The notes beneath the pieces were generated by a model, which saw only the letters and a list, made by a program, of their open reading frames with translations, was not told where the DNA came from and did not search any database. The position numbers were made by a program, and so were the translations under genes. A DNA stretch of 53,218 nucleotides, filler included, from Sluysia triapertura (taxonomy: Eukaryota): NCBI GenBank assembly GCA_046118255.1. It is 4 parts of 4 records of this genome, joined end to end, with 100 filler letters (N's around TTAATTAATTAA, not from the genome) between each part and the next. Parts side by side here need not be neighbours in the genome. Positions count along the whole stretch, not along the records: positions 42,320 to 53,218 come from JBJNIA010191784.1; 3 more parts are not named here. One strand, 5' to 3'. Within the stretch, counting starts at the first letter, position 1. The number at the start of each line of letters is the position of its first letter. This document shows positions 1 through 53,218 of this stretch, one piece after another.

Positions 1-480
1 AATAAAACCATCAAAACACATTTATTGTGGTTAAAACAATTTAATATATCATAATTTATTCTTAAAATAGCCGTTTCTGTTGAGTGATTGAATGATTGAA
101 ACTACGTAATGTATTTACTTGCATTTTTTATTTATGAAAATACAACTAAATTTTATTCACTGACTGAATTAATGTTATAATTATAATAAATTGCTAATAA
201 TATATTTAATATAATGTTAACTCTCATATTGGAATAATCTGTATGTTATATTTATGTTAAAGTTTTATGACAATTTGTTTAATTTCAATTTAAAACTAGT
301 TACTATTTATTATTAAATTTTAAATTTATATTAACTCTATTAAGTGTCATTTTAAATTGATATAAAGCACTATAATCTTAATGATAATGATTTTAATTTT
401 ATTTTAGATAGATTTAAATTAAATGAATTTTACATTTAAAAATTGAAAAAGATTTAAAGAATGACTGAATATTATGTTAC

Positions 481-7493: not shown

Positions 7494-7566
7494 GGGCTGA
7501 TAGCTCAGTGGGTAGAACATCGAACTAAGCAGCGAGATGGCCCGGGTTGGAATCCCAGTCAGTCCA
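7494..7566 (+). pseudogene. tRNA-like sequence (tRNA pseudogene or SINE head), isotype unassignable
   Basis: 73 nt. Acceptor stem GGGCTGA/TCAGTCC, A-box TAGCTCAGTGGGTAGA, degenerate B-box GGTTGGAATCCC, followed by TTTT. The anticodon stem is mispaired. Confidence 0.75.
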
Positions 7567-8554
7567 TTTTACGAAGTCTAGCAGGATGATGAGAAATTAT
7601 AATGTCAGTATTGATTTTATTTACACTGCATATATATATATATATATATATATGATTTGATGTTTTATGATTTTGTATGTGTCTACATAACAATTAAATC
7701 AATATTAATATGAATTTTTGAACATTTTAATGTGAACATTTTTGGACATTTTAATTTTAATTTAAGTATTTTATTTTTGATTTTATAAAAATTTAATATT
7801 TTATAATATAATTTTAATTCAAACGTAACTATCGAGAGATTAAATTATTTAATTTAAATTTTTAATACAAATTAATTTTGTTTAAATACAACTATAAGCT
7901 GACCTTCAAAAAAGCTGCAATAAAAATGCATAAACTCACAACAAAACATTTTCTTAAAAATATCTTTTGTTCGCTTTTCTAGCTCTAACAATTATAAAAT
8001 ATATTTAAGCTGGGTTTGCCTGTGTAACACGATTTATCGTATACGGACGTGTCCACAGGATTTTAACAATCTAAGATGAATTGTGCTTTCAAATAACTTA
8101 ACTCTTTCAGTTACCTGGTAACCTAAATCTTTTAGTTACTTGGTACTTTAATATTTTTTAATTAACTTTCTCGACCTTTAACTAATTTCAGTCCACTTAC
8201 TGTAATATTTTACTAACAATGTTTCCCTTTAAAATACAATACCTTTTAAGACAAAAAATGTTATTCTAATAAAAATGGTATTCTAATCAAGATAAAATGG
8301 TATTCTAATCAAATTTAATTACAAAAATACCGAACAAATTATGAATGAATAATAAATATAATAACAAATATTCGATTTTAAAAAATTAATCCGAGTTTAA
8401 CCCAGGATTAATTCTTGGGTGCAAAATAAAATAGATTTTATGTTGATTTTAAGGCAAAATTTATTAATGCTTCTTAAAAATTACTAGCTTACTTAAAGTA
8501 TTCGAAAAACTCCTTCGAGAGTAATGTCTTGGAATATACGGTATTTGACTTGAA

Positions 8555-13119: not shown

Positions 13120-15360
13120 AAGTAAATAGAATAAAAACTTAACTAAACTTAACCAACTCACTGAACTTACCAGTTAGGGCCAGTCGTTGGTTTTATAAAT
13201 CAAGATAAGTCTCAATAATATACTAATAGAACTTTAGTGCTCAATCCTACCTGGAGACAAAATTTATTAATGTCTATTGTTAAGATTCTCTGATAATTGT
13301 CAAATTTAGGTTTTCTTATCAAGGATGTAAATAGATTTGAAGGTTTTGCGTCTTAGTATCTAGAAAAACTTTGATTATAAATAGAATTAAAATTTATTTA
13401 GTAATTTTACGTAGATTCCATTATATGGAATCGTGACAGTAGATTTTACTTGCTAGAGTTAAATTCTAGCTTCTTGAAAGCAACAGTAATTTTAAATATT
13501 AACAAATGTTAAAGCTATACGTAAATAAGTAAGTAACAAAAAATGTATTAAATATTTAAAATAAAATCTTTGCCCGAAGGCTGTACTAATAATGATTTTA
13601 TTGTTTGCATGTAGTTGAGAAGGCAGTATTTGTGGCTTGATCTGGAGCATCTCCTGGAGTATTGGCTGTAGCGGCATTAGTAGATTGCTGTCTGATTGTT
13701 GGGTACTGAGATAATTCTGGTTCATGAATATTCTAAATGACATTTTACCATTCCCATAGAGATATCGACGAGCAATTTATTTATCGTGGATTTACTGAAA
13801 TTGAAATTTTTAAGTATGCTAATATTCTTGGTACTCATTGTTCCCAATGCTGGAAAGATTAAGGTAAATATTTTGACCTTGCGCCGGACGATTCTATTAA
13901 GATGCAGAGAGAATTGTGAATACTTTATTGAGTTTTTCCTATGAATGTCTGGATATGATTCGATTTTATCAAATGGGGTTTTAATGTCAATATGAAAGTA
14001 ACAGTCATTGTATAGAAAGAGTAAGTGGTCAGAAACATCGGGTCGGTTCGCATTGAGCATCACAGTTAACATCAATGCCATTATCCCTGAAGAGAGAAGC
14101 GACAAGTCCAAATGCTAAGTTGTGGCGCGAAGTGATAAGGCTGGGATTGAAAGGGCAGTGATTAAGAACGTGAGGTGCATATTCATCGAGAACATCGACG
14201 ATAGTTAATGGGAAATTTTTCTTTCAAGTTTTGCACATTGAAGTTTAGAGATAAAGTATTTGTTCGGGCTCTGAGTAAGAAGAAGAAACTCTTATCTGGG
14301 ATTTCGGAGCTCATGAGCATTCTATTTGTAAGGCGAGACTGTGTCAGGAAAGAAGTTAGAAGAGATTGGAATTTCAAGGATTGCCATCGTAGAAAGTGAG
14401 ACAACCCTGTCAGTTGATGAAAGGTCTGAGTGACGTTATCCTTTTCATCTTTGGTGAAGGTAAATGATAGAGAAGGAATCATCCACAAAGGCAAACAAGA
14501 CTTATATATCATGTTTTGATTTAAGAGACTTACAACAGTCCCTAACGTTGGACTACAGGGTTGACTTTAGTGGGTACATTTCAGAATTAGTTATGCCAGA
14601 AAGCCAGTTGAGAGTCGTAATAATATCTGGTTTCCTGAAGTATAGTTTAGAGTTTTCCTTAAGATATTCTAGAGAAAAACGTCGAAGAGTATTGTCGCCA
14701 GAGGTAAAGATACGGAAGCAGTGGACTATAGTTTGAATCAAGTATTCGCTGTGGAGAGAAGTAAAGCCGAGTCCTCCGAGATCTACAGTAGTGTAAAAGT
14801 AGTCAATGGGTGATGATCGGAAGTGAATTTGAAGAGCGGGTCTCAGGATGTTTCTAAAACTTTGGTCGAAAGAAGGCGTGTTTCTATCAGTGTAATTGTG
14901 CACTCCCAAGTTTAGTTATTAATGAAATAATTATAAAGAAAAAAAGTTATTAACAAACTTATACAGAAAATTAAAGAAAAAATTTCTAAGAATTATCAAT
15001 AATAATAATAAATTACAGAACTAACTATCTTAGTTAGTTAATTAATAAAATGATTTTAAAAATACATTTTACCAACGATCCAATATATGATCCAAATGAA
15101 TTAAATGAATTTAAGTAGATTTTGCTTATGATATTTTAGAAAATACCTAACTTATTACAATTAAACTAACGTGATTTATAAAAGTCTTTTCTTTTAGACA
15201 AGAACAAATAAACGTAATTGAATCGTGTGCAAAGAGACCAGACAAAGATTTACAAAAACTTCTAAGTAAATGATTTGGATAACAAAATTGTGTGTCAATT
15301 ACAAAAATGTTAACGTATATATAGTTGTTTTAGTCTGACCTATAAAAGACTAAAACAAAA
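13120..15360 (+). repeat. Dispersed repeat family A, copy 1 (hairpin core 13153-13190), split by the RLE retrotransposon
   Basis: Core ccaac..ctgaacttaccagttagggccagtcgttgg. The segments 13120-13590 and 14910-15360 are together colinear with the reverse complement of 51770-52480, ending in gttgttttagtctgacct. Confidence 0.75.
13590..14909 (-). mobile_element. 5'-truncated, frameshifted RLE-type non-LTR retrotransposon (R2 group, NeSL/Utopia-like)
   Basis: Minus-strand fragments in order: YFYTTVDLGGLG, RWQSLKFQ, LRARTNTL, zinc knuckle (Y)RRC..DEYAPHVLNHC, RHN, RPD, IDIKTPFD and K..KY of the PD-(D/E)xK endonuclease. A short 3' UTR ends at AATAAA near 13600. GC content is higher than in the flanks. 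Confidence 0.9.
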
Positions 15361-15794: not shown

Positions 15795-15894
15795 NNNNNN
15801 NNNNNNNNNNNNNNNNNNNNNNNNNNNNNNNNNNNNNNTTAATTAATTAANNNNNNNNNNNNNNNNNNNNNNNNNNNNNNNNNNNNNNNNNNNN
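15795..15894. other. Artificial contig linker
   Basis: N44-TTAATTAATTAA-N44, 100 nt. The palindrome has stops in all six frames. Confidence 0.97.
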
Positions 15895-29680: not shown

Positions 29681-29780
29681 NNNNNNNNNNNNNNNNNNNN
29701 NNNNNNNNNNNNNNNNNNNNNNNNTTAATTAATTAANNNNNNNNNNNNNNNNNNNNNNNNNNNNNNNNNNNNNNNNNNNN
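29681..29780. other. Artificial contig linker
   Basis: N44-TTAATTAATTAA-N44. Confidence 0.97.
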
Positions 29781-36569: not shown

Positions 36570-36642
36570 GTGCTGATAGCTCAGTGGTAGAGCAGTCGGA
36601 CTGCGCAGACGATGGTCCCGGGTTCGATCCCCGGTCAGTCCA
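36570..36642 (+). pseudogene. tRNA-like sequence, second copy of 7494-7566
   Basis: Intact D arm GCTC-AGTGGTA-GAGC, intact T arm CCGGG-TTCGATC-CCCGG, acceptor 3' strand TCAGTCC-A, then TTTTACGAAGTCTA as in copy 1. The anticodon arm does not pair canonically. Confidence 0.8.
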
Positions 36643-37534
36643 TTTTACGAAGTCTAACATAAACAATATTAAGAATTAATCTTAATATTTTAATATATTT
36701 CATTCGATTGTAGTCATTAATGTCATAATATTTCCATATTGTACATTTTTATTTAATTCTTAACTCTGTATTCTTAGTATTATTAGATTTATTTTATTGT
36801 TCATCAGACTAAATAATTGATTTAATATCAAAATCTAATAGATATAAAAGAAAGTGTAAGTGTATACTGCGGTTGAAGATTCTATAATTATAATTAAAAA
36901 ATGCGTTACAGAAATATTTAACTTTGTTGAGTAAATTCTAATAAAAGTTATAAATCGAGTAAGAATATATTGAATTTGGAATAATTAATTGTTGTCTAAC
37001 TACGTACAAAAGTTGAATTAAACGAAAGAATCATCTACGCAGATTAAAGAAGAGTTTGCATAAGTAGTGGGTTCTAAACCGAATCAAAAAATAAACTATT
37101 ACGCAAAAGGAATAAGAAATAAACTCGATGGCATAATCACTTGCTAGATCATTAAAAAATATTAAAGAACAAGTATTTACTCTCAGAGTCAAGTAATCGT
37201 TTTGCATTTGTTAATGAAGAAATCTTATAGAAGTGCCTTAGAATATAAGATATTTAGGTAAACATATTTTTCATAATTTTTAGAAAAACATTTATCTAAT
37301 TTTTCATTGTTAGCTCTTCAAAAACCTTCCTTTGAATCTTCACTGGTTTGATTAAAGTTATGCGTAACTTATACGTATATTTTTGTGAAATATCAAAAAT
37401 CCTAAAGTTTTCTTCAGTCATGCTTTCATGAATAATATTTGAATAAACAAATAATGTTTATTCATAAACTGGAACTGGTTCAAAAAGCATTATATGGAAA
37501 GAATTGTTGATAGCAAGTACTAGGGTTTTCTTAA

Positions 37535-42219: not shown

Positions 42220-42319
42220 NNNNNNNNNNNNNNNNNNNNNNNNNNNNNNNNNNNNNNNNNNNNTTAATTAATTAANNNNNNNNNNNNNNNNNNNNNNNNN
42301 NNNNNNNNNNNNNNNNNNN
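42220..42319. other. Artificial contig linker
   Basis: N44-TTAATTAATTAA-N44. Confidence 0.97.
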
Positions 42320-42506
42320 AAAAGTAGATCACGATAAAATTATACTTGATATACTAACTATTGAAATTATTAAGGTTTAAACTGATCAAGATAATAGTTA
42401 GTTAAATATTTAACAATTTTTAAAGACGCAACAGTTTAATAAATAATCCGGATTTAACTTAGAAGTTATCAACAAACCCAATTCACAAAACAATGGCGCC
42501 GATTGT

Positions 42507-43812
42507 ATGTCGCGGCTGACAAACGTAGATGATAAAGGAAATATTAATTTAATACAAATTATGGCAATATCGAGTAAGGTTCAAGACACTAAGGAAATTA
42601 TCAAACATCAAAGGGAAGATGAAGAAATTTCATCTATCATTCATTCATTAGCGAATGAGACGCTAGTCGAAAATCAAGCAAAGAGATTGGCCATTACGGA
42701 CGGAATTCTTCGATTTAGAGATTCGAAGGAAGATTGGAAAGCGATAGTCCCCAAATCATTAATAACACGAATTCTAATACAATTACATAATGATCAGCTG
42801 GGTGGACATTAAGGAAAACATTATCACGCATAAAAGATAAATATTATTGGAAGGTCATGGAAGAAGATATTAGAAAACGGTGTAAGAATCCTTCATTTTG
42901 TTGTAGAAGAAAGAACATAGGAGTTAGACAAAGGTACCACTCAAACCAATGCCGGTACCATTATCACCCATGGAATTTACAGCAATGGATATAATGGGAC
43001 CATTACCAGAAACTATTAATGGAAATAAATATATTATTGTATTTGCTGACTACTTAACTAAATGGCCTGAGGCATACTCATTACCAAATCAAAAAGCCGA
43101 AACAGTTGCACAAGTACTTGTTGAAAAAATAATATACAGATAAGGTACGACACGGAAACTATTAAGTGATCAAGGCACAAATTTCACTAGTGATGTAATT
43201 AAATCAGTGGCCAAAATATTTGATATTCTAAGAATTTACACATCACCTTATCACCCACAAACTGACGGATTAGTTGAGAGATTTAATCGAACATTGATAA
43301 ACATGCTTCAATCTTATGTTAACGACAGACAATCAGATTGGGACCTCTATATTGCACCATGTTTATTTGCATCCAGCAACAAATTTTACTCCATTTTATC
43401 TAATATCATGCGTCACTCAAATATGCCAGTGGATTTAGAATGGATAACACCTACATCACAATACGTGGGCACGCTTGAATATGTAACAATAATGCACGAG
43501 AGACTACAAGATGCGTGGAAGCGTGCGGGTTTACAAATAAAATGTTCACAAGAGGCATATAAGGATGCATACGATAAGAAAGCTAAAGAGCACAATTTTC
43601 AAATTGGTGATAAAGTACTCATCGAATATCCACTAACTAAACCAGGTCAATCACGAAAGTTACATAAACCACCGATACCAATATATTTGTTAAAGATATA
43701 ACCAAACTAGACTCTGAAACTTTTGTAGTACATGCTAACAGATGTAAGATAGCACCAAGCGACGAATACCAATTAAGAAATAGAACTCTTAAGAAATCAA
43801 AATTAAAAGGAT
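42507..43812 (+). pseudogene. Gypsy-type integrase (HHCC + DDE core + C-terminal region), with stops and frameshifts
   Basis: Motifs LHNDQLGGH, AMDIMGPLP, DYLTKWPEA, LLSDQGTNF, TSPYHPQTDGLVERFNRTL, YDKKAKEHNFQIGDKVL and VVHANRCK..YQLRNR. The GPY motif appears deleted. Confidence 0.95.
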
Positions 43813-44220
43813 GAAAGACCGCAATAAACCATCATCTTCAGTTCAGTCACTGATTGATAAACAAGTAGTAATGATGTATCATGTATCAAGTGGAATACGT
43901 ACACATATTTTCCAAAACGTACGATTTAATGAGAGATGGATCCAAGCAGTCATAGATACAGGAGCAACCACATGGGTGATACATTACAATTTTTTGACTA
44001 CATGGGAAGTCGCGTTCTTAGATCCATCGCGAACAATAATTTATAACGTGAAGCGGACACCGATAAATAATACATGGACATATTAGATAAGCGAATAAAT
44101 GAATCTCCTTTTGATTTAATAATTGGTTTTGATATACTTGATAAATTAGATGACACAGTCATAAATTACAAGTATGGTCTTATAAAATTCCCTCAAGGTG
44201 CACAATTAATATTTCCACAA
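43811..44220 (+). pseudogene. Retropepsin-like aspartic protease domain downstream of the integrase
   Basis: IQAVIDTGATTWVIH carries the catalytic DTG at 43955. After a frameshift, SPFDLIIGFDILDKL...INY gives the C-terminal IIGxD motif. Confidence 0.85.
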
Positions 44221-44246
44221 GTTGTTACTCCATCTTTCAATACTCC

Positions 44247-44247
<1 letters not shown>

Positions 44248-44301
<54 letters not shown>
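44248..44301 (+). repeat. In-frame (AAT)n microsatellite encoding poly-Asn inside the retrotransposon ORF
   Basis: About 18 AAT units within ORF 44074-44520. Confidence 0.95.
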
Positions 44302-44302
<1 letters not shown>

Positions 44303-44514
44303 TTGCTCCGATTCACATCCCGACATCTGATATCCAACCTATTAATCCAGTTCCGTTACCGAGTTACTTGTCTGATTTGTTTTGGGATGAGTCATCCACA
44401 GACTCATCATTGTCAGCAGTAATGAATGAATTTTCGGATTCATCATCATCAGGAATTGGCTATGTTGATACAGTAATGCTAACATTTGCTAAGCCGAGTA
44501 ATAGTAAGAAATCA

Positions 44515-45600
44515 TGGTGAACAACAATACTAATAGTTATACTAATTTATACTCTTATCTCTAATTAATTTTGCTAAAGCTATAGATATTGAAGAAGATG
44601 AGGAATATAGAAATTTATACGCCGCTATTAATAACGGGAAAGAACAAAAGATATCAATTACAAACATTTACAATGAGTATTGGGAAATAAAATTTTCTTC
44701 AAAGAAAATGTTTTTAAGACATATATTTGATATATACTTCATTTATTTAGAACCATTATTAATAGGTAAACCACATCACATAGATATGATCCCGCGAAAG
44801 TTTACAATACGCATATAGACCAATGATAATAGCATTCGCATTAGATACTAAACGAAACACTAGAAAAGTGCAAAGCTGGATAGGAAATGTTACAACAAAT
44901 AAATATATGAATAATTGTATGTCTGAATTTAGAAAAAAAACAATCCATCAGACAGTATGTTGTCTAACGTTTTTACATTGATATATAAACTAATGTCAAT
45001 ATCTATAATCTTAATAGTAGTATATGCACTTTGGATCATATTACATGTAGTTGATTTTAGTAGAAAGGTATATGTATTCACAGTTAATAAAAATCTAATA
45101 CCTTTAACGTTATTCATGATAATTACTACAATACATTGTAATACATATGAAGTACAAATCTACGAAACCGAATATCTCGAATTTCGAAATTATGACACAG
45201 AAGTAAGAATTAAAGTGTTACAGAATGACATTTATGAGATTTATGTGTTACAGGAAGTGTTACAGAATGAGATTTATGTGCCCAAAACCAACTCGACTTA
45301 ACTTTAGTTATTGGAACGTTCAAGAATATTAAATTAATAATTTAGTCAACCCCATTGCTATATGCACTGATTTTTTGGATAATGAAGAACGGCACATTAT
45401 TAATAGAATATATGTGGCACCAGCAAAATTAGAACAATTGTATTTTGCATTAAAGGGAACTCGAAAATATTTATCGTTATCAGAAATGTTGAAAAATGAT
45501 CCAGCCTTATTGATATTAATATTAGCAACAATACTATTTATTATCGCTTTATCGATAGTTGTACTGATAATTATTATGTTTGTAGATATCCAACTTCAAT
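44515..45600 (+). pseudogene. Membrane polyprotein-like (env-position) ORF relic of the LTR element
   Basis: Hydrophobic segments TTILIVILIYTLIS..AKA|IDIEED, SISIILIVVYALWIILHVV, LIPLTLFMIITTIHC|NTYE and ALLILILATILFIIALSIVVLIIIMFV, separated by ~100-130-aa polar domains. Confidence 0.55.
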
Positions 45601-45690
45601 TACCTTTCTTTTTGTTCTTCCCCCAGCTCCTTTTCCCTCTTCACTTTCTAATCCCTTTACCAATGACACCGCTAATTTGAAGCGCTGGAC

Positions 45691-46351
45691 ATGCCTTTTG
45701 GTTGGTTACGAGATGTGATGAACTTGTCTAATCACAACTTCATCCCTTTCTCTACCGATGACATTTTCACACGTGCAAGACAGAGGTTAAAAATCGTCTA
45801 CCGCGTATGTCCAAAGTTCACATGCAAGCAATTGGCATCTGAACTTGTTACCGTGTTAGATTACATTAGGGAAAGAGACCTCACTTTCATCCAACTTTGT
45901 AACGACCCTCTTCCTACTCTTTTCTAAGCCTGTTACTAAACCTTTTCCTACTCAAACACCACGGTTTGCTGCTGATATTCATTCTCCAAAAACTTCTCCC
46001 AGTTCACGACAAAATCAGTCAGCATCGTCATCTTCATTTATCAATCCAAGTAAAGAACAGAAATCATCATTATCATCATCGTCATCCGTCGTTCAAGAAA
46101 TTAAACAGCAACCGGTATCATCATCATGACCTTCGTCTGTCTTCGTCAAACTCCAAACCCCAAAAAGAAAATCACCCAACCTTCCAAAAGAACATCAATA
46201 CCTTTCCCAAAATCAAAACCCACTAGATTCTCCTCCACTGGAAGATGTGCCTGTACATCGTCCATGGAAACGATCTTATTACGGCACACTCACAGATTCG
46301 CTACCACCACATTGGCTCAAAGATGAAGAAGTCGACCTAGACTCCTACTGA
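45691..46351 (+). pseudogene. Terminal accessory ORF of the LTR element: small N-terminal domain plus Ser/Pro-rich tail
   Basis: MPFGWLRDVMNL...LCNDPLPTL continues, after one frameshift near 45920, as SKPVTKPFPTQTPRF...SSSSSVVQEIKQQPVSSS*PSSVF...HRPWKRSYYGTLTDSLPPHWLKDEEVDLDSY*. Confidence 0.55.
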
Positions 46352-46412
46352 TCCTGTAGTCATTTTAATTTATTTCGAGATTTGCGGACGAATCTTCCCG
46401 TTGGTGAAGTAT

Positions 46413-47090
46413 TGTGAGGACGCTGAGATCAATTATAGATCAATTGTAGATTTAAAACAATTCGACTGAATTTTATAACAATCATTTTATTTTATTTGAC
46501 AAAATATTTACTTTTATTATAAAATAATAATAATCAATAAATTAAATTGAAATTAACCTCGTTTAAATGGAAATAATTAAATTAAAATTAAATAAGTTAT
46601 TTTAATTTAAATCAATTTAATTTAATTATGATCTAATTTTAAATTTTAATTTAATTTTAATCAATTTCATAAATTTTGTTTAACTTGGCAAACATGCACT
46701 ATGGCTGCTGAAAATTTTATATATAAACCAGTATGTTTAGTAAAATTTTCAGAACAAGTCATTTGCTGTGAAAATCTGTCGACGTCCATCAATCAATTTC
46801 CATGACGTATCAAGTAAGATTTTTTCATGATAACTTTACCTTCTCATCGTAACTTGGAGAAGTAAAATCTACTCAAAATCTTAACAAATTTAATTTAATT
46901 TCTTAATACTTATTTGTATTATTGACAGTTTATAATTGTCTAGCATATCTGACCATAATTAGTATTTGCTGTGAAATTAGTTGGATCATTTGTCGTAATT
47001 GTTTTATTATAATAATGACGATTTGTTTTGTAACTGACTAAAATAATTTATTTCACCCGACTTTAAAGATGAAAGATTACTAAGCTTACA
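46413..47090 (+). repeat. Putative 3' LTR (~680 bp)
   Basis: Starts TGTGAG right after GGACGAATCTTCCCGTTGGTGAAGTAT (Gypsy PPT-region-like) and ends CTTACA (imperfect terminal inverted repeat). A TATA-like TATATAAA lies at ~46720. No second LTR is available to confirm the ends. Confidence 0.6.
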
Positions 47091-47365: not shown

Positions 47366-49484
47366 TTATTTGACCTCTGCTTTAGAAATATAATTCATTA
47401 GAGCTCGAATGTCATTCAGACACTCTTTGGCTGCTTTTTGACATTCTGGAGTAATCGGTGAAGCCATACTTAAAAAACCATGAGCTAAATTTGGCATTAC
47501 TTTAAGTTCGATTTTTTGATTCGGTGCAACTTTTGAAACTCGTTTACATAACTCTATGGAATCATCCAATAATGGATCGTATTGACAAGCCTGCAATAAT
47601 AATAATAGTAATAATGAAATAGTAATCATAATGATAATAATAATAACAATAATAATAATGGAGAACTTAATTTAAATCAAAGTAAAACTTGTCGTAATGT
47701 CAGCAGTTTCAAAGAAAGAACCTAAAAATCTAAAAACAAAAATAAATACAAACGCTTTTATCTTTAGAAGAAAATAAAATAAAATGTGAAATAGAACTCG
47801 CTACATTTAGTTATCTATCAGAAAAAGCTACGGATTGGATGGAATCGTCTCATTAACGAAAAATCGCTATATTCTAATAAGATAGAAATGAAAAGAGAAT
47901 ACTAACATAGGGAAATAAACACGAGCTAATACAATGTGGATGTAAAGACTAACGTTATATCTTAGAAGGAAATTAGCATTTGTATGGAATAATTGGTCAT
48001 ACAATAGAATTAAATATTAAATATAAAAAGATTAATAATCAAAAAAGATAAAATGAAATTCAAAAATATTATTGGCCACAGTAAAAATAGTACTTAAAGA
48101 AATCAGATAAACAAAACCGTGCAATAATTAATTGGATTGTTGAATTTAATTCTACTTGAATTTTATATAAATTTAAACGTATTTTGTAGTGGTTATGTCG
48201 CCAATTTTTATATACATCAAATTATATCGTTGTGGTTATGTATTTTCAACATTATAATTATCACTACGTATTTTGTTCACTCATATGCGCCTTGATAATA
48301 AACATACATATTTTCGCGGATTTACTATGTTTATTTGTGTTAACGTTTTGAATGCTAATTAAGTGTGACGGATTCTTGATTTCTCATTTCATATTTGATT
48401 GCTAATTTCTGATTTTCAGTATCTGGATCTTGTAAAAAAATAATTTTAAAAAATGCAAATAAATTTCAAACAATAAACTATTTTTATTGATAAAAATCTC
48501 TTATTAATTCTAAAGTTTTCCACATAAATTCATTTAAAAAATCATTTTTGATAACCATCATTGTTTTACATCTTTTGTTTTTAGTCCAATAAGATTCTTT
48601 GTTTCAAGTTTGAACACCTGTAATTGGTTCCACAAAATTAACTGAATCATTAACTTCATCGCTATCAATAATGGATGCTGAAAGCCTCCTTACCGTCAGT
48701 TCATAAAAAAATACCTAACATGAGCAAAATTTAGTTCAAATAATTTAAAAATAATTTATACATCAGCAGGATAAGAGGTTTGTTTTGCGGATATAGTGGT
48801 AATACCATGAACTCCTCTACAGCTCTTATGGACGTTCATGTATTAGGTCAATAAACAAATATTGTTTAGTAACATTGTTGACAATCAACATCCAATGATT
48901 GTCCACATTAACGACCCAATACAAATGTTGGAACTTGGCTAATTTATACAGGGTCTGACAATCCACTGTTATGAATAACTGAACGGTTCAGTCCAAAATA
49001 GTAATATTCCATTTAAACAGCACTAAAAAGTGAATTTGATTATTGTAAAATAGTTAAATTAATATAAACTCACGAAGACAGTCATTGGTGGAAATTTTGC
49101 CAATAGAGAATCTTCTGCAAGTAGAGGACTTTTAATGTGATCTTGTTCTAAATATACATTTTCTATTAATTTCGCAGGACTGAGTGAACTTTCTTTAGAA
49201 TAAAACAATATTTCACCACGACTTCTTATTGTACCTGTTTCTACTGTTAAATATATATACATATTTTAAATCAACCAAATAATTTTATTATAAATTAATA
49301 TTCAACATCGAATAAAAACGGTTTTATAAATATTTCAAATTTAACTAACAAAATTTATGATTAGAACGAGATTTTCGATTTTTATATCTTTTTGATTTTG
49401 ATATATTTTCGTTCTCATTGTGATCAGATTCCGAATTTCCAGAAATTGTACGAACTAAGTTCTCCTCATCTATGCCAGCATACG
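47366..49484 (-). CDS. LIPE: Hormone-sensitive lipase-like alpha/beta hydrolase, last three exons (49484-49350, 49243-49074, 47590-47366)
   Basis: Phase-consistent GT-AG splicing gives YAGIDEEN...KSPLLAEDSLLAKFPPMTVF-ACQYDPLLDDS...LAHGFLSM...EVK*. This matches HSL motifs AYAG, SPLLAPD..L..LPP, DPMLDDS (catalytic Asp) and HGFL (catalytic His). Confidence 0.9.
48760..48980 (-). pseudogene. Ulp1/C48 cysteine-protease-like relic within the lipase intron
   Basis: KFQHLYWVVNVDNHWMLIVNNVTKQYLFID resembles the Ulp1 N..HW.L.V.....Y.D segment. The downstream Q..DCG region is degraded. Confidence 0.5.
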
Positions 49485-51769
49485 CTGAAATATTATTAAC
49501 AAAATACACAGTTAGAATATCAAGTATTGTTTACGTAAGAGTCTATATAATATAACAAACGTAGCTTTAAATTAAAATTATTTTCACTTCAATAAATAAA
49601 AAATAATTAATTACTCGTCAGAAAATATGCGAAAAGTAGATCTGGATAATCTCCAAGACATACACATCCAATCATTTAAATTTACTTGGAAATATACTAA
49701 AACACACCATTTTGGTTCCACAAAACTTGACAGAAGAGCAAACATTTTTAGATGAACCAAGGACTTTCTATAGACGAATCTTTTGAATCGACTCCTCGAA
49801 GTAACTCACAACCAAAAAAGATTCCTTTCTTAACTTAGTTTTGTCAGAAATTAAGTATAGCTTTGTATATACCAGAAAATGTTCGTCCAGAATCGATCAA
49901 GAGAAAAGAAAATAATCGACACATTTAAATATACACACATCACGAACAATACATATTACATCCTCAAATTCTCATACACTAATACTTCAATAGTTATCTT
50001 TACAAGCTTTATTTATAAAGAGATCTACACATATACTGTAACTTTATTACAGAGTACAATTTATCTTAAACGTTATCATTAGTGCTGTCGTTACTTTTGT
50101 AATATAACATATCGAATATAAATTACAAACAATTACTGATTCCGAAAAAGAAAGCAACATCACATAGTTACATGAGAAAATTTTACAATCACAACTGAAA
50201 ACTAAACCTACTAAAAGGATGAAATAATTTGAGAGAAACAGTATTTAAGCAAAAACTTTTGACAAAAAATACAACAATAAATACAAGTATGTTTTCTGCT
50301 CAAGTATTCTATTTTAAAAAGAGAAGATTTTTCATTATAATTCATTGAAGAAAAGATTCTTAATATCCAACTATTCCAACATAAAAGATTTTAATATCCA
50401 GATTTTCTGACTATTTTTTAAATTCTACTATGGACCAAAATTTTATATAAGTTTATCGAAAATTTAAATTTTCGTTATAAAATATACGCAAACTCTTATA
50501 AAAACTATTGTTCAATCTTTTAATCGATTGTTGTAAATTCATTATAAACTCATTAAATTAAAGTAGATTAATAACTATTAAAATTTTAATAACCTAACTT
50601 AATTGTTTTTCTCTTACAAATTAATGTATTGTATTCTGTAATTTAATATAAACTAATTAAGCACATTCTTTATTACAAAAATTGATTTCTTTATATTAAT
50701 AATAATAATAATTTACGTAGTTTCAAATTACATCTAAAATGTACTCTACATCGTTGATTTAACCTTTAAAATTTTATTTCTAGATCCTATTGAATCGGAA
50801 TCTTAAGCAAAATCATTATTCAAAAGACTCGTCATTGCAAGAAGACGGGAAATAAACTATTGAAGCCATTCCATTAAATCTTTTGCGAGTTTTTGACCTC
50901 CCAGAAGTTGAAGAACTTCTATACAATAATTTATATTTGTGTTTTCAAATAATCTTATTTTATACGTCTCTTACGTGTTAGCCCTTAAGTGGGTAAGACT
51001 AACATCGTAAGGAACTCACACAAATTAAAGTAAATCAAACATACAGAATCGATACAATGAAAGATTTTGCTCATGTAATACACGAACAAGCATAAATAAA
51101 TCATAGGATAAACGTAACCATTGATTCAATTTTTAAGATCTCAAACTTTTACACAACCTTTACAAAACATAACCATTTAAACTGTTAGATGTTTAAAAAT
51201 ATGCTTAAATTTAATTAGCTATTTGAATTTACATTTAAATTTAAATAATTTCTGAAATTAATATGTAAATCATGTTGTAAAATTAGTATAATGTTTTATA
51301 AATCATTTTAATGAGATATTTTATAAAAAAAACTGATCGAAAGAAAAAATAAAGTAAAAGTAAGAACGATACTAATTATAGTTTTTTTGATTTATTGCGC
51401 AAATTTTGCATTAATAACGTAAATCTTGTAATCAATTAAGTTTGATGTATATTGAATTCATACGCATATTGACATATTTATTGACTATTTACGTAATTAT
51501 TTTATTTATAATGTATATGTGTTTATTTATTGATATAGTTATTGACTATTTACGTAATTATTTGTAATTTTATTTAAAACGTATAAATGTTAATTTATTT
51601 TTATGGAATTAATCAAGATTATTAATATTTTTATTGGAACTAATTAAAAATCGAATTTATTGGAAATAATTTAAAAAAATTGAAAGTAAGAAATTATTTT
51701 TTAATATTGTTTTTAAATTAAAAAAAAACTTTTAAAATATTTTAATTAATTTAAACTGGCGTAATTGTT

Positions 51770-52480: not shown

Positions 52481-53218
52481 TCACATTAGTAATATAAATG
52501 TAACATAATATTCATCCATTTTTCAATTTTTCAACCTAAATCATATTTAAATTTCATAACATCATCCATTTTTTCTAAATTAAATCAAAAATTTATGTAA
52601 TTTAAATTTATTTAAAAAATAAAATTATTTCAAAGTAAAATTAAAATCATTATTATTAAGATTATAATGCGTTATATCAATTTAAATTGAGATTTAATAG
52701 AGTTAATATAAATTTAATATAACTAATTTAAATTGAAATTAAACAAAATGTCATTTTAAAATGAGATTCTATAAAGACAATATAATATTAAATTTTAAGA
52801 ACATGATATGAGAGTTAAAATTATATTATATTGAGATTGAATAAAACCAGTACATAATTGAAAATTAGTAATATTATTTTCGATTAAAATTAACTTAAAT
52901 TGAAGTAGAAAGAATAATGTAATTTCAAATTTATAAGCATTATAATCGAGTAATTATTATAATTATTATTAAGTAATTATTAATCATTACTTAACCCTTT
53001 TGCCGCCGCTGGGACCAATTTCTGCAAGTTTCTCAGGCTTAAGTAGGTCATGTTACATATTGTTTTAGAGGATTAAATAAGGACAATGTTTTGCATAATC
53101 CTTTCTGCTTTTAAAGTGTGTGTGCACAAAGTTATTTCAACAATATACCACCATTTTGTGAGAAAAATATTTGAATCAAATAAAATAAGTGAAAATATTA
53201 TAAAGTCTAAAGTTATTA

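What the first reader, a model, noticed from the sequence alone, without database searches (positions are those of the whole stretch)
44515..45600. Env-position membrane polyprotein with signal-domain-TM-signal-domain-TM layout but very small ectodomains
Seen: four hydrophobic segments, two ending in signal-peptidase-like sites (AKA|ID, IHC|NT), bracketing two ~100-130-aa domains. Established: some invertebrate LTR elements captured viral glycoproteins, such as baculovirus F-like env in errantiviruses and phlebovirus-like glycoprotein in nematode Cer elements. Those ectodomains are several hundred aa and Cys-rich. Inference: this could be an undescribed pair of small surface proteins for cell-to-cell spread, or a heavily deleted env.
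Basis: partly seen in the sequence, partly recalled or inferred. Interest (0 to 1): 0.75.

Follow-up and report, generated by a model that had tools for sequence, protein, structure and literature searches.

The report
Retrotransposon's orphan protease-plus-membrane gene
A broken copy of a many-copy jumping gene in an animal genome carries, where a viral envelope gene normally sits, a long gene unlike known envelopes that likely made a second protease and two small cell-surface proteins, which would be a new way for such elements to pass between cells.

Summary
The feature is real and larger than described. It lies in a decayed copy of a multi-copy Ty3/gypsy element in an AT-rich animal genome. 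The stretch 44515-45600 is crossed with 5 breaks against 16.6 expected (0 of 200 resamples as few). Related contigs from two runs (two organism labels) cover it in collinear pieces. The two domains (about 138 and 120 codons) hold about one Cys each and no furin site. They had no match in Pfam, PDB, a 5.8-billion-protein word search or 1.84 billion representatives. A deleted F- or gB-type env is therefore unlikely. The closest integrase relatives (L003, L005) carry a different signal-ectodomain-TM module fused to integrase, plus RING and exonuclease-like ORFs: a cargo-swapping lineage. Best reading: two small surface proteins released by signal peptidase and serving spread between cells (0.45, untested); host-manipulating surface proteins are the main rival. 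No fold, expression or function shown. The scan's earlier notes held nothing like it.

The parts
42447..43814 (+). 3' part of pol (end of RNase H, integrase), broken; the 5' part of the element is lost in the assembly gap at 42220-42319
   Evidence: Pfam rve E 9.3e-12; best PDB matches are foamy-virus and Ty3 integrases; 58% identity to L003 integrase. The RNase H end is a recalled motif reading, no Pfam hit
43811..44240 (+). Retropepsin-like protease domain at the start of ORF3, split by a frame change near 44070; its ATG overlaps the pol stop (ATGA)
   Evidence: Pfam gag-asp_proteas E 5e-4, RVP 0.022, Asp_protease_2 0.036 on the N-half, all below gathering cut-offs; VIDTGA at 43949 is the only such motif in six frames, IIGFDIL at 44119 one of 2
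44240..44520 (+). Pro/Ser/acidic linker with an in-frame AAT microsatellite (poly-Asn); in-frame stop at 44518-44520; a Met at 44476
   Evidence: X1 record 3 links protease to domain 1 with 502 letters against 574 here
44521..44581 (+). Signal-peptide-like segment 1 (basic n-region, hydrophobic core, AKA|ID), split by a frame break near 44545
   Evidence: sequence; -3/-1 rule only
44582..44995 (+). Domain 1, about 138 codons, predicted luminal; frame changes near 44798 and 44920-44948
   Evidence: contigs of both runs differ in length from this copy near 44797-44799; no homologue
44996..45052 (+). TM1, followed by a 12-codon basic loop
   Evidence: KD 2.63
45095..45139 (+). Internal signal-peptide-like segment 2 (IHC|NT)
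   Evidence: passes the crude signal-site rule
45140..45503 (+). Domain 2, about 120 codons with a local tandem duplication; frame change near 45290, stop at 45330-45332
   Evidence: no homologue
45504..45584 (+). TM2
   Evidence: KD 3.39
45585..45718 (+). Probable Pro-rich cytoplasmic tail with an NPF motif, after a frame change near 45585; its stop overlaps an ATG (TGATG)
   Evidence: local score against the L003 tail reached by 3 of 1000 shuffles, L005 tail 33 of 1000; post hoc, three frames tried
45718..46348 (+). Possible further ORF of about 210 codons (Ser/Pro-rich, basic), low-copy; coding status uncertain
   Evidence: 3 breaks, but 35 of 200 resamples as few; summed contig depth 22-57 over 45860-46443
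46385..46560 (+). Possible internal 3' end and start of the 3' LTR (TGT at 46413); end of LTR not defined
   Evidence: recalled resemblance to gypsy 3' ends; depth rises again in both runs from 46444; no second copy in the window

Best explanation
A many-copy Ty3/gypsy retrotransposon family carries behind its integrase an orphan gene of about 636 codons, broken in this copy, that likely made one precursor: a cytosolic retropepsin-like protease and linker, then two small membrane proteins predicted to be cut apart by host signal peptidase and likely used for particle release or passage into neighbouring cells in place of a classical envelope. Inferred steps: SP1 takes domain 1 into the ER lumen and TM1 anchors it; the 12-residue loop stays cytosolic; SP2 takes domain 2 in and TM2 anchors it, leaving a Pro-rich NPF tail for trafficking or capsid contact. 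The protease would trim itself or the linker off the front. Shown: position, reading frame, segment order, multi-copy family, absence of detected relatives. Inferred: single precursor, cleavage, topology, protease activity. Untested: any role in spread.
For: Frame far more open than chance: 5 against 16.6 breaks, 0 of 200; whole 43811-46347 10 against 30.5, 0 of 200. Codon-position score agrees in 28 of 30 windows. 1021 contigs of X1 and 38 of X2 lie on 44400-46560, most under 95% alike. Pieces bridge linker-SP1-D1 (44401-44646; 44440-44646), D1-TM1 (44617-45066; 44666-45071) and D2-TM2 (45170-45583; 45369-45583) collinearly. One X1 contig links protease to D1 at a distance shorter by 72 letters, a multiple of three, and one joins IN end to ORF3 start. 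Of 37 listed differences between this copy and others, 14/6/17 fall at codon positions 1/2/3 (P 0.017 for so few at position 2; chi-square P 0.07). Two retropepsin motifs 57 codons apart plus three weak retropepsin Pfam hits. The nearest integrase relatives also put a signal-ectodomain-TM module right behind integrase. Precedent for env-independent transfer by a small TM protein: sORF2 (PMC11952523, passages).
Against: No homologue, fold, transcript or intact copy was seen. Both single-sequence models were poor (pLDDT 51 and 47.5). No fusion peptide or furin site. No laid piece spans the whole ORF, and no contig with a measured length crosses SP2. The codon-position count rests on 37 of 256 rows, chosen by the tool as best supported (3 of the 40 shown left out at indel or duplicated places). 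X1 may be the source sample, and X2 holds one piece 100% identical to the window at depth 2, so its independence is not complete. X1 records 4 and 5 do not keep frame against the inferred path over their spans. The ectodomains do not match those of L003/L005. The protease scores below Pfam cut-offs. Relatives carry RING and exonuclease-like cargo, which shows that cargo here need not concern spread.
Confidence: 0.45

Rival explanations
1. The ORF is real and processed as above, but the two surface proteins act on the host (decoy, adhesion or signalling receptor mimics, immune or cell-fate control) and play no part in moving particles.
For: L003 and L005 carry a receptor-like module (signal, two tandem ~70-aa repeats, stalk, TM, Tyr-containing tail) beside RING (Pfam E 5e-7) and weakly ISG20-like ORFs (E 0.21 and 0.84). 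Bdelloid ORF3s once called env proved to be esterases and exonucleases (PMC5408684, passages). Burro elements carry apoptosis and ubiquitin cargo (PMC6431247, passages). No fusogen hallmark.
Against: No host receptor family matched. The tandem signal-domain-TM layout in one frame is typical of viral structural polyproteins and rare in host genes (recalled).
Confidence: 0.27
2. Mosaic: the protease is a relic of a second, nested or recombined element, and the membrane part is a separate ORF, expressed from a spliced RNA or from the Met at 44476.
For: A stop at 44518-44520 and frame changes near 44070 and 44545 separate the parts in this copy. L003 and L005 have no protease behind integrase. No RT follows the protease.
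Against: Another copy keeps protease and D1 at an in-frame distance. The linker is stop-free for 149 codons with coding-like base periodicity. Summed depth stays high over IN end, protease and membrane part.
Confidence: 0.15
3. A known env (F, gB or Gn/Gc type) reduced by large deletions or diverged beyond recognition.
For: Env position; the two-glycoprotein layout recalls Gn-Gc precursors (recalled); some gB-type errantivirus env are flanked by two TM segments (PMC13524379, passages). Searches with a mutated single copy are insensitive.
Against: About one Cys per domain, no R-x-K/R-R site. No Pfam or PDB env match, 0 hits in 1.84 billion proteins. Measured bridges in other copies add at most 34 letters, so a deletion would have to predate the family in both organisms.
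Confidence: 0.1
4. Hydrophobic segments are chance products of AT-rich non-coding DNA.
For: Hydrophobic 19-mers (193) and signal-like sites (13) are common in this window; Atlas recognition values were low, 1543 and 1450.
Against: 0 of 200 resamples are as open; the minus strand needs 9 breaks; codon periodicity; position-2 deficit among copy differences; kept in two organisms.
Confidence: 0.03

Closest known systems
Errantiviruses with F-type or HSV/gB-type env (Chary and Hayashi, PMC13524379)
   Same: Ty3/gypsy pol followed by an ORF with signal peptide and TM anchor; multi-copy in invertebrates
   Different: Their ectodomains are large, Cys-bridged trimeric fusogens. Here there are two small Cys-poor domains, two anchors and a protease in front. 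Their search used env baits and kept only F or gB types, so such an element would not be recovered (section 14).
sORF2/FAST-like proteins of MDG1-group elements (Voichek et al., PMC11952523)
   Same: Small TM product of an env-less gypsy element linked to cell-to-cell transfer
   Different: sORF2 is 63-107 aa with one TM, a ~30-aa ectodomain and usually N-myristoylation. Here: a long precursor, two TMs, two signal-like segments, 120-140-aa ectodomains.
Bdelloid Vesta4 and Vesta6c ORF3 (Rodriguez et al., PMC5408684)
   Same: Short env-position ORFs with TM segments and no clear env homology; a lineage that swaps ORF3 cargo, DEDD exonucleases included
   Different: Vesta4 ORF3 is 220-230 aa with Cys between two TMs, RXXR and a coiled coil. 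None has a protease or a doubled signal-domain-TM unit in the passages read.
L003 and L005 elements
   Same: 56-58% integrase identity; signal-ectodomain-TM-tail module directly behind integrase; possibly related tail
   Different: Their module is in frame with integrase, has one signal and one TM with two tandem repeats, no protease, and no detectable similarity to D1 or D2.
Alphavirus and flavivirus structural polyproteins (recalled, no call)
   Same: Cytosolic N-terminal domain, then alternating signal, ectodomain and anchor segments cut by signal peptidase; alphavirus capsid is an autoprotease
   Different: Analogy of layout only: aspartic rather than serine protease, no class II fusogen-sized domain, no sequence link.

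Membership tests
Ty3/gypsy LTR retrotransposon (Metaviridae) | rve integrase with HHCC zinc domain at the end of pol | tested here: met
   Pfam rve E 9.3e-12; 58% identical to L003, which has Integrase_H2C2 E 1e-19 plus rve
Ty3/gypsy LTR retrotransposon (Metaviridae) | RT that groups with Ty3/gypsy; gag-PR-RT-RH-IN order | not testable with these tools
   5' part lies beyond the gap at 42220-42319; no genome held
Ty3/gypsy LTR retrotransposon (Metaviridae) | Paired LTRs | tested here: inconclusive
   Possible 3' LTR start at 46413; no second copy in the window
Errantivirus F-type env | Large ectodomain with furin site, fusion peptide and conserved Cys | tested here: not met
   Domains about 138 and 120 codons, about 1 Cys each, no R-x-K/R-R; no Pfam hit
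Errantivirus HSV/gB-type env | Five-domain Cys-bridged ectodomain of several hundred residues | tested here: not met
   Same calls; PDB search with D1 0 hits at E<=10
Errantivirus F-type or gB-type env | Fold match to a fusogen | tested here: inconclusive
   D1 model pLDDT 47.5; 0 viral Foldseek matches at E<=0.001; D2 not folded
sORF2/FAST-like fusogen | 63-107 aa, one TM, ~30-aa ectodomain, N-terminal myristoylation | tested here: not met
   Two TMs and two ectodomains over 100 aa inside a long ORF; criteria from PMC11952523
Retropepsin (A2) protease | hh-D-T/S-G-A motif and a later hh-G-x-D-hh motif | tested here: met
   VIDTGA 43949 and IIGFDIL 44119
Retropepsin (A2) protease | Profile score above Pfam gathering cut-off; retropepsin fold | tested here: inconclusive
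   21 bits against 28.2 on the N-half alone; C-half no hit; model pLDDT 51
L003/L005 post-integrase membrane module | Two tandem ~70-aa repeats in the ectodomain | tested here: not met
   Repeat profile: 226 and 178 of 300 shuffles score as high as D1 and D2; hhalign E 0.19 and 0.54
L003/L005 post-integrase membrane module | Short Pro-rich tail behind the last TM | tested here: inconclusive
   3 of 1000 and 33 of 1000 shuffles, post hoc

The most novel reading that the evidence does not exclude
A third kind of retrotransposon envelope module: a self-contained precursor with its own second aspartic protease and a pair of small glycoproteins, built like the structural polyprotein of an enveloped RNA virus and unrelated to F, gB or FAST. 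It would let this gypsy family spread between cells and help explain its very large copy number, within a wider unstudied lineage (L003, L005) that swaps surface modules behind integrase.
Probability: 0.25. Interest if true: 0.85.

Novelty: new variant of a known kind. Interest (0 to 1): 0.6.

Why it matters
Surveys of enveloped gypsy elements find only F- and gB-type env, partly because they search with those baits, and the one env-independent route described (sORF2) is a single tiny TM protein. A successful family with a protease plus two small surface proteins in the env slot would widen the set of ways retroelements reach other cells, or show that they carry surface proteins to steer the host. 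A second protease behind integrase was not found in my paper searches.

Tried and rejected
Protein word searches: 44933-45298 'longer' (120 candidates, 0 at E<=1); 45270-45587 'near' (10, 0); protease N-half 'longer' (16, 0 at E<=0.1). Full HMMER search of the frame 44546-45298, which holds part of D1, TM1, SP2 and part of D2 plus about 50 off-frame codons: 0 of 1.84 billion at E<=0.001. ESM Atlas: no usable hit for 44546-44800 or 45333-45590; the whole of D1 was not searched there. Viral contigs: nothing for the protease, integrase or L003/L005 module; two 18-residue matches (L001, L002) taken as chance. Metagenome scan with TM1-D2: 0 of 85 candidates. Prokaryote genomes: 0 of 415. D1 and D2 are not detectably alike. 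The FN3-like look of the L003/L005 repeats is a recalled motif; Pfam and PDB did not confirm it. Single-sequence folds were too poor to use. No RNA holder listed. Three integrase motifs were absent from 7 supplementary files of PMC13524379; its bait sequences are on GitHub and were not seen, so the clade was not placed. Earlier scan notes: nothing relevant in 6 look-ups. The two stop/start overlaps (ATGA, TGATG) could mean coupled translation or be chance by-products of copy-specific frameshifts; not decided. The host taxon was not determined.

Full report
Setting. The window is AT-rich (mostly 17-30% GC), gene-poor DNA with AAT microsatellites, three assembly gaps and an intron-containing lipase-like gene at its right end; I read it as an animal genome. 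Right of the gap at 42220-42319 begins the 3' part of a broken pol: integrase core by Pfam (rve E 9.3e-12), closest in PDB to foamy-virus and Ty3 integrases. The finding lies about 700 nt behind the pol stop.

The observation. The four hydrophobic segments are there, on the + strand but in three frames. Taken alone they prove little: the window holds 193 hydrophobic 19-mers at KD>=1.8 and 24 at >=2.6 (TM1 and TM2 among these), and a crude signal-site rule fires 13 times (SP2 among them). The frame is the real evidence. 44515-45600 is crossed with 5 breaks on the + strand and 9 on the - strand; Markov resamples need 16.6 on average, 0 of 200 as few as 5, and 1 of 156 same-length window stretches does as well. 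A codon-position score trained on pol picks the inferred frame in 28 of 30 windows from 43800 to 45630; this test is not independent of stop avoidance. The stretch behind, 45600-46347, is not clearly more open than chance (35 of 200).

The coding signal starts at the pol stop: 43811-44500 needs 1 break against 8.0 (0 of 200). This part reads as a retropepsin: VIDTGA (the only such motif in the six frames) and IIGFDIL 57 codons later (one of 2), with three retropepsin Pfam families on the N-half, all under their cut-offs (best E 5e-4). A Pro/Ser/acidic linker follows, then SP1. The whole reads as about 636 codons: protease and linker 257, D1 138, TM1, loop 12, SP2, D2 120, TM2, tail 44. This copy changes frame near 44070, 44545, 44798, 44920-44948, 45290 and 45585 and has stops at 44518 and 45330.

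Other copies. Two runs hold the stretch. On 44400-46560, 1021 contigs of X1 and 38 of X2 (another organism label and study) were laid, most under 95% alike. Summed depth is mostly in the thousands to tens of thousands over 44400-45567 (one bin of 112 just before TM1) against 22-57 over 45860-46443; this is no copy number but shows a large family, and a 3' part that is rare or too diverged. Pieces are collinear over linker-SP1-D1, D1-TM1 and D2-TM2, and measured bridges add at most 34 letters, so the small domains belong to the family and are not a deletion in this copy. Both runs differ in length from this copy near 44797-44799. One X1 contig links protease to D1 at 502 letters against 574, an in-frame difference about the size of the microsatellite, and one joins the integrase end to the ORF3 start. 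Of the 40 difference rows shown (256 in all), 37 fall in assigned frames: 14, 6 and 17 at codon positions 1, 2 and 3 (P 0.017 for position 2, chi-square P 0.07). Against: X1 may be the source sample; X2 holds one piece identical to the window at depth 2; no piece spans the ORF; SP2 is crossed only by joints of unknown length; two X1 records do not keep frame over their spans and may be broken copies themselves.

No relatives in protein space. Three word searches, a full HMMER pass over 1.84 billion representatives with the frame 44546-45298, two Atlas queries, Pfam and PDB gave nothing for the membrane part. All used one decayed copy in pieces, so distant relatives can be missed. The domains hold about one Cys and one possible glycosylation sequon each and no furin site. 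Single-sequence models were unusable.

Relatives by integrase. A metagenome scan gave 12 loci from 80 candidate stretches. The two closest, L003 (58%) and L005 (56%), have integrase running in frame into a signal peptide, an ectodomain, one TM and a short Tyr-bearing tail. These modules are homologous to each other (23%, E 1e-15) and hold two tandem ~70-aa repeats (hhalign E 8e-4). The window's D1 and D2 do not match them (226 and 178 of 300 shuffles score as high). Only the tail behind TM2 resembles theirs (3 and 33 of 1000 shuffles, chosen post hoc). L003 then carries a RING ORF, and both carry a shared ORF whose only PDB matches are two ISG20-family exonucleases (E 0.21, 0.84). The lineage thus changes its cargo behind integrase, with a surface module first each time. 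I listed ORFs for 3 of the 12 loci (L003-L005); L004 shows no such module.

How it likely works. Inferred from the anatomy: one precursor; SP1 and SP2 pass D1 and D2 into the ER lumen, TM1 and TM2 anchor them, signal peptidase frees two type I membrane proteins, and the cytosolic protease trims the front. The layout recalls structural polyproteins of enveloped RNA viruses (recalled, analogy only). I put 0.45 on a role in particle release or passage between cells, 0.27 on host-directed surface proteins, 0.15 on a mosaic with an unrelated protease relic, 0.10 on a reduced known env and 0.03 on noise. That the ORF is real and family-wide I hold at about 0.9.

Literature. PMC13524379 (abstract, outline, passages, section 14, first part of section 5, motif search in 7 supplementary files): intact env-bearing gypsy elements fall into F and gB types, found with env baits. 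PMC11952523 (passages): sORF2 as an env-independent transfer protein. PMC5408684 (passages): bdelloid ORF3s include small TM ORFs, esterases and DEDD exonucleases, and warn against calling ORF3 env from TM segments alone. PMC6431247 (passages): Burro elements with many cargo domains. Other papers were seen as search listings only. Nine searches showed no gypsy element with a protease behind integrase or a doubled signal-domain-TM unit. The library lacks most subscription papers and Repbase, and bioRxiv supplements were closed, so an entry may exist unseen.

Verdict. A real, undescribed-looking env-position gene of a gypsy family: a new variant of a known kind. Interest 0.6, held down by one broken copy, no fold and no function, and held up by the second protease, the orphan domains and the cargo-swapping relatives.

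Noticed in passing
L003:3-6448 and L005:1-4017: Two gypsy elements with open frames: integrase fused to a signal-repeat-repeat-stalk-TM-tail module, followed by a RING ORF (L003) and a shared ~700-aa ORF weakly like ISG20 exonucleases. Looks like an undescribed cargo-rich lineage and is easier to study than the window's copy.
   Followed up: partly
window 43811-43814 and 45716-45720: Both ORF junctions show overlapping stop/start signals (ATGA, TGATG), as in coupled termination-reinitiation (recalled); they may be chance.
   Followed up: partly
window 44249-44300: An AAT microsatellite sits in frame in the linker (poly-Asn); one other copy is 72 letters shorter across the linker.
   Followed up: partly
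window 45718-46348 (+): Possible fourth ORF, Ser/Pro-rich with a basic C-terminal part; low-copy in X1, with a few contigs joining across parts of it.
   Followed up: partly
window 47366-47590, 49059-49265, 49611-49805 (-): Exon-like pieces of a host lipase gene (Abhydrolase_3 E 0.017 for the first, no Pfam hit for the others; hormone-sensitive-lipase likeness recalled), ending about 1 kb from the element's 3' end.
   Followed up: no
window 13722-14915 (-): Three consecutive open frames of 120-130 codons in a GC-richer patch; they read like a decayed non-LTR retrotransposon (recalled), no Pfam hit.
   Followed up: no
window 7520-7583 and 36596-36659: Two copies (77%) of a short repeat with a tRNA-like box, possibly a SINE.
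   Followed up: no
window 317-420 and 52617-52720: A 104-nt inverted pair, 86% complementary, 52 kb apart; probably dispersed repeat copies.
   Followed up: no
window 15795-15894, 29681-29780, 42220-42319: Three assembly gaps with the same 12-nt six-frame-stop linker; the last one cuts off the element's 5' half.
   Followed up: yes
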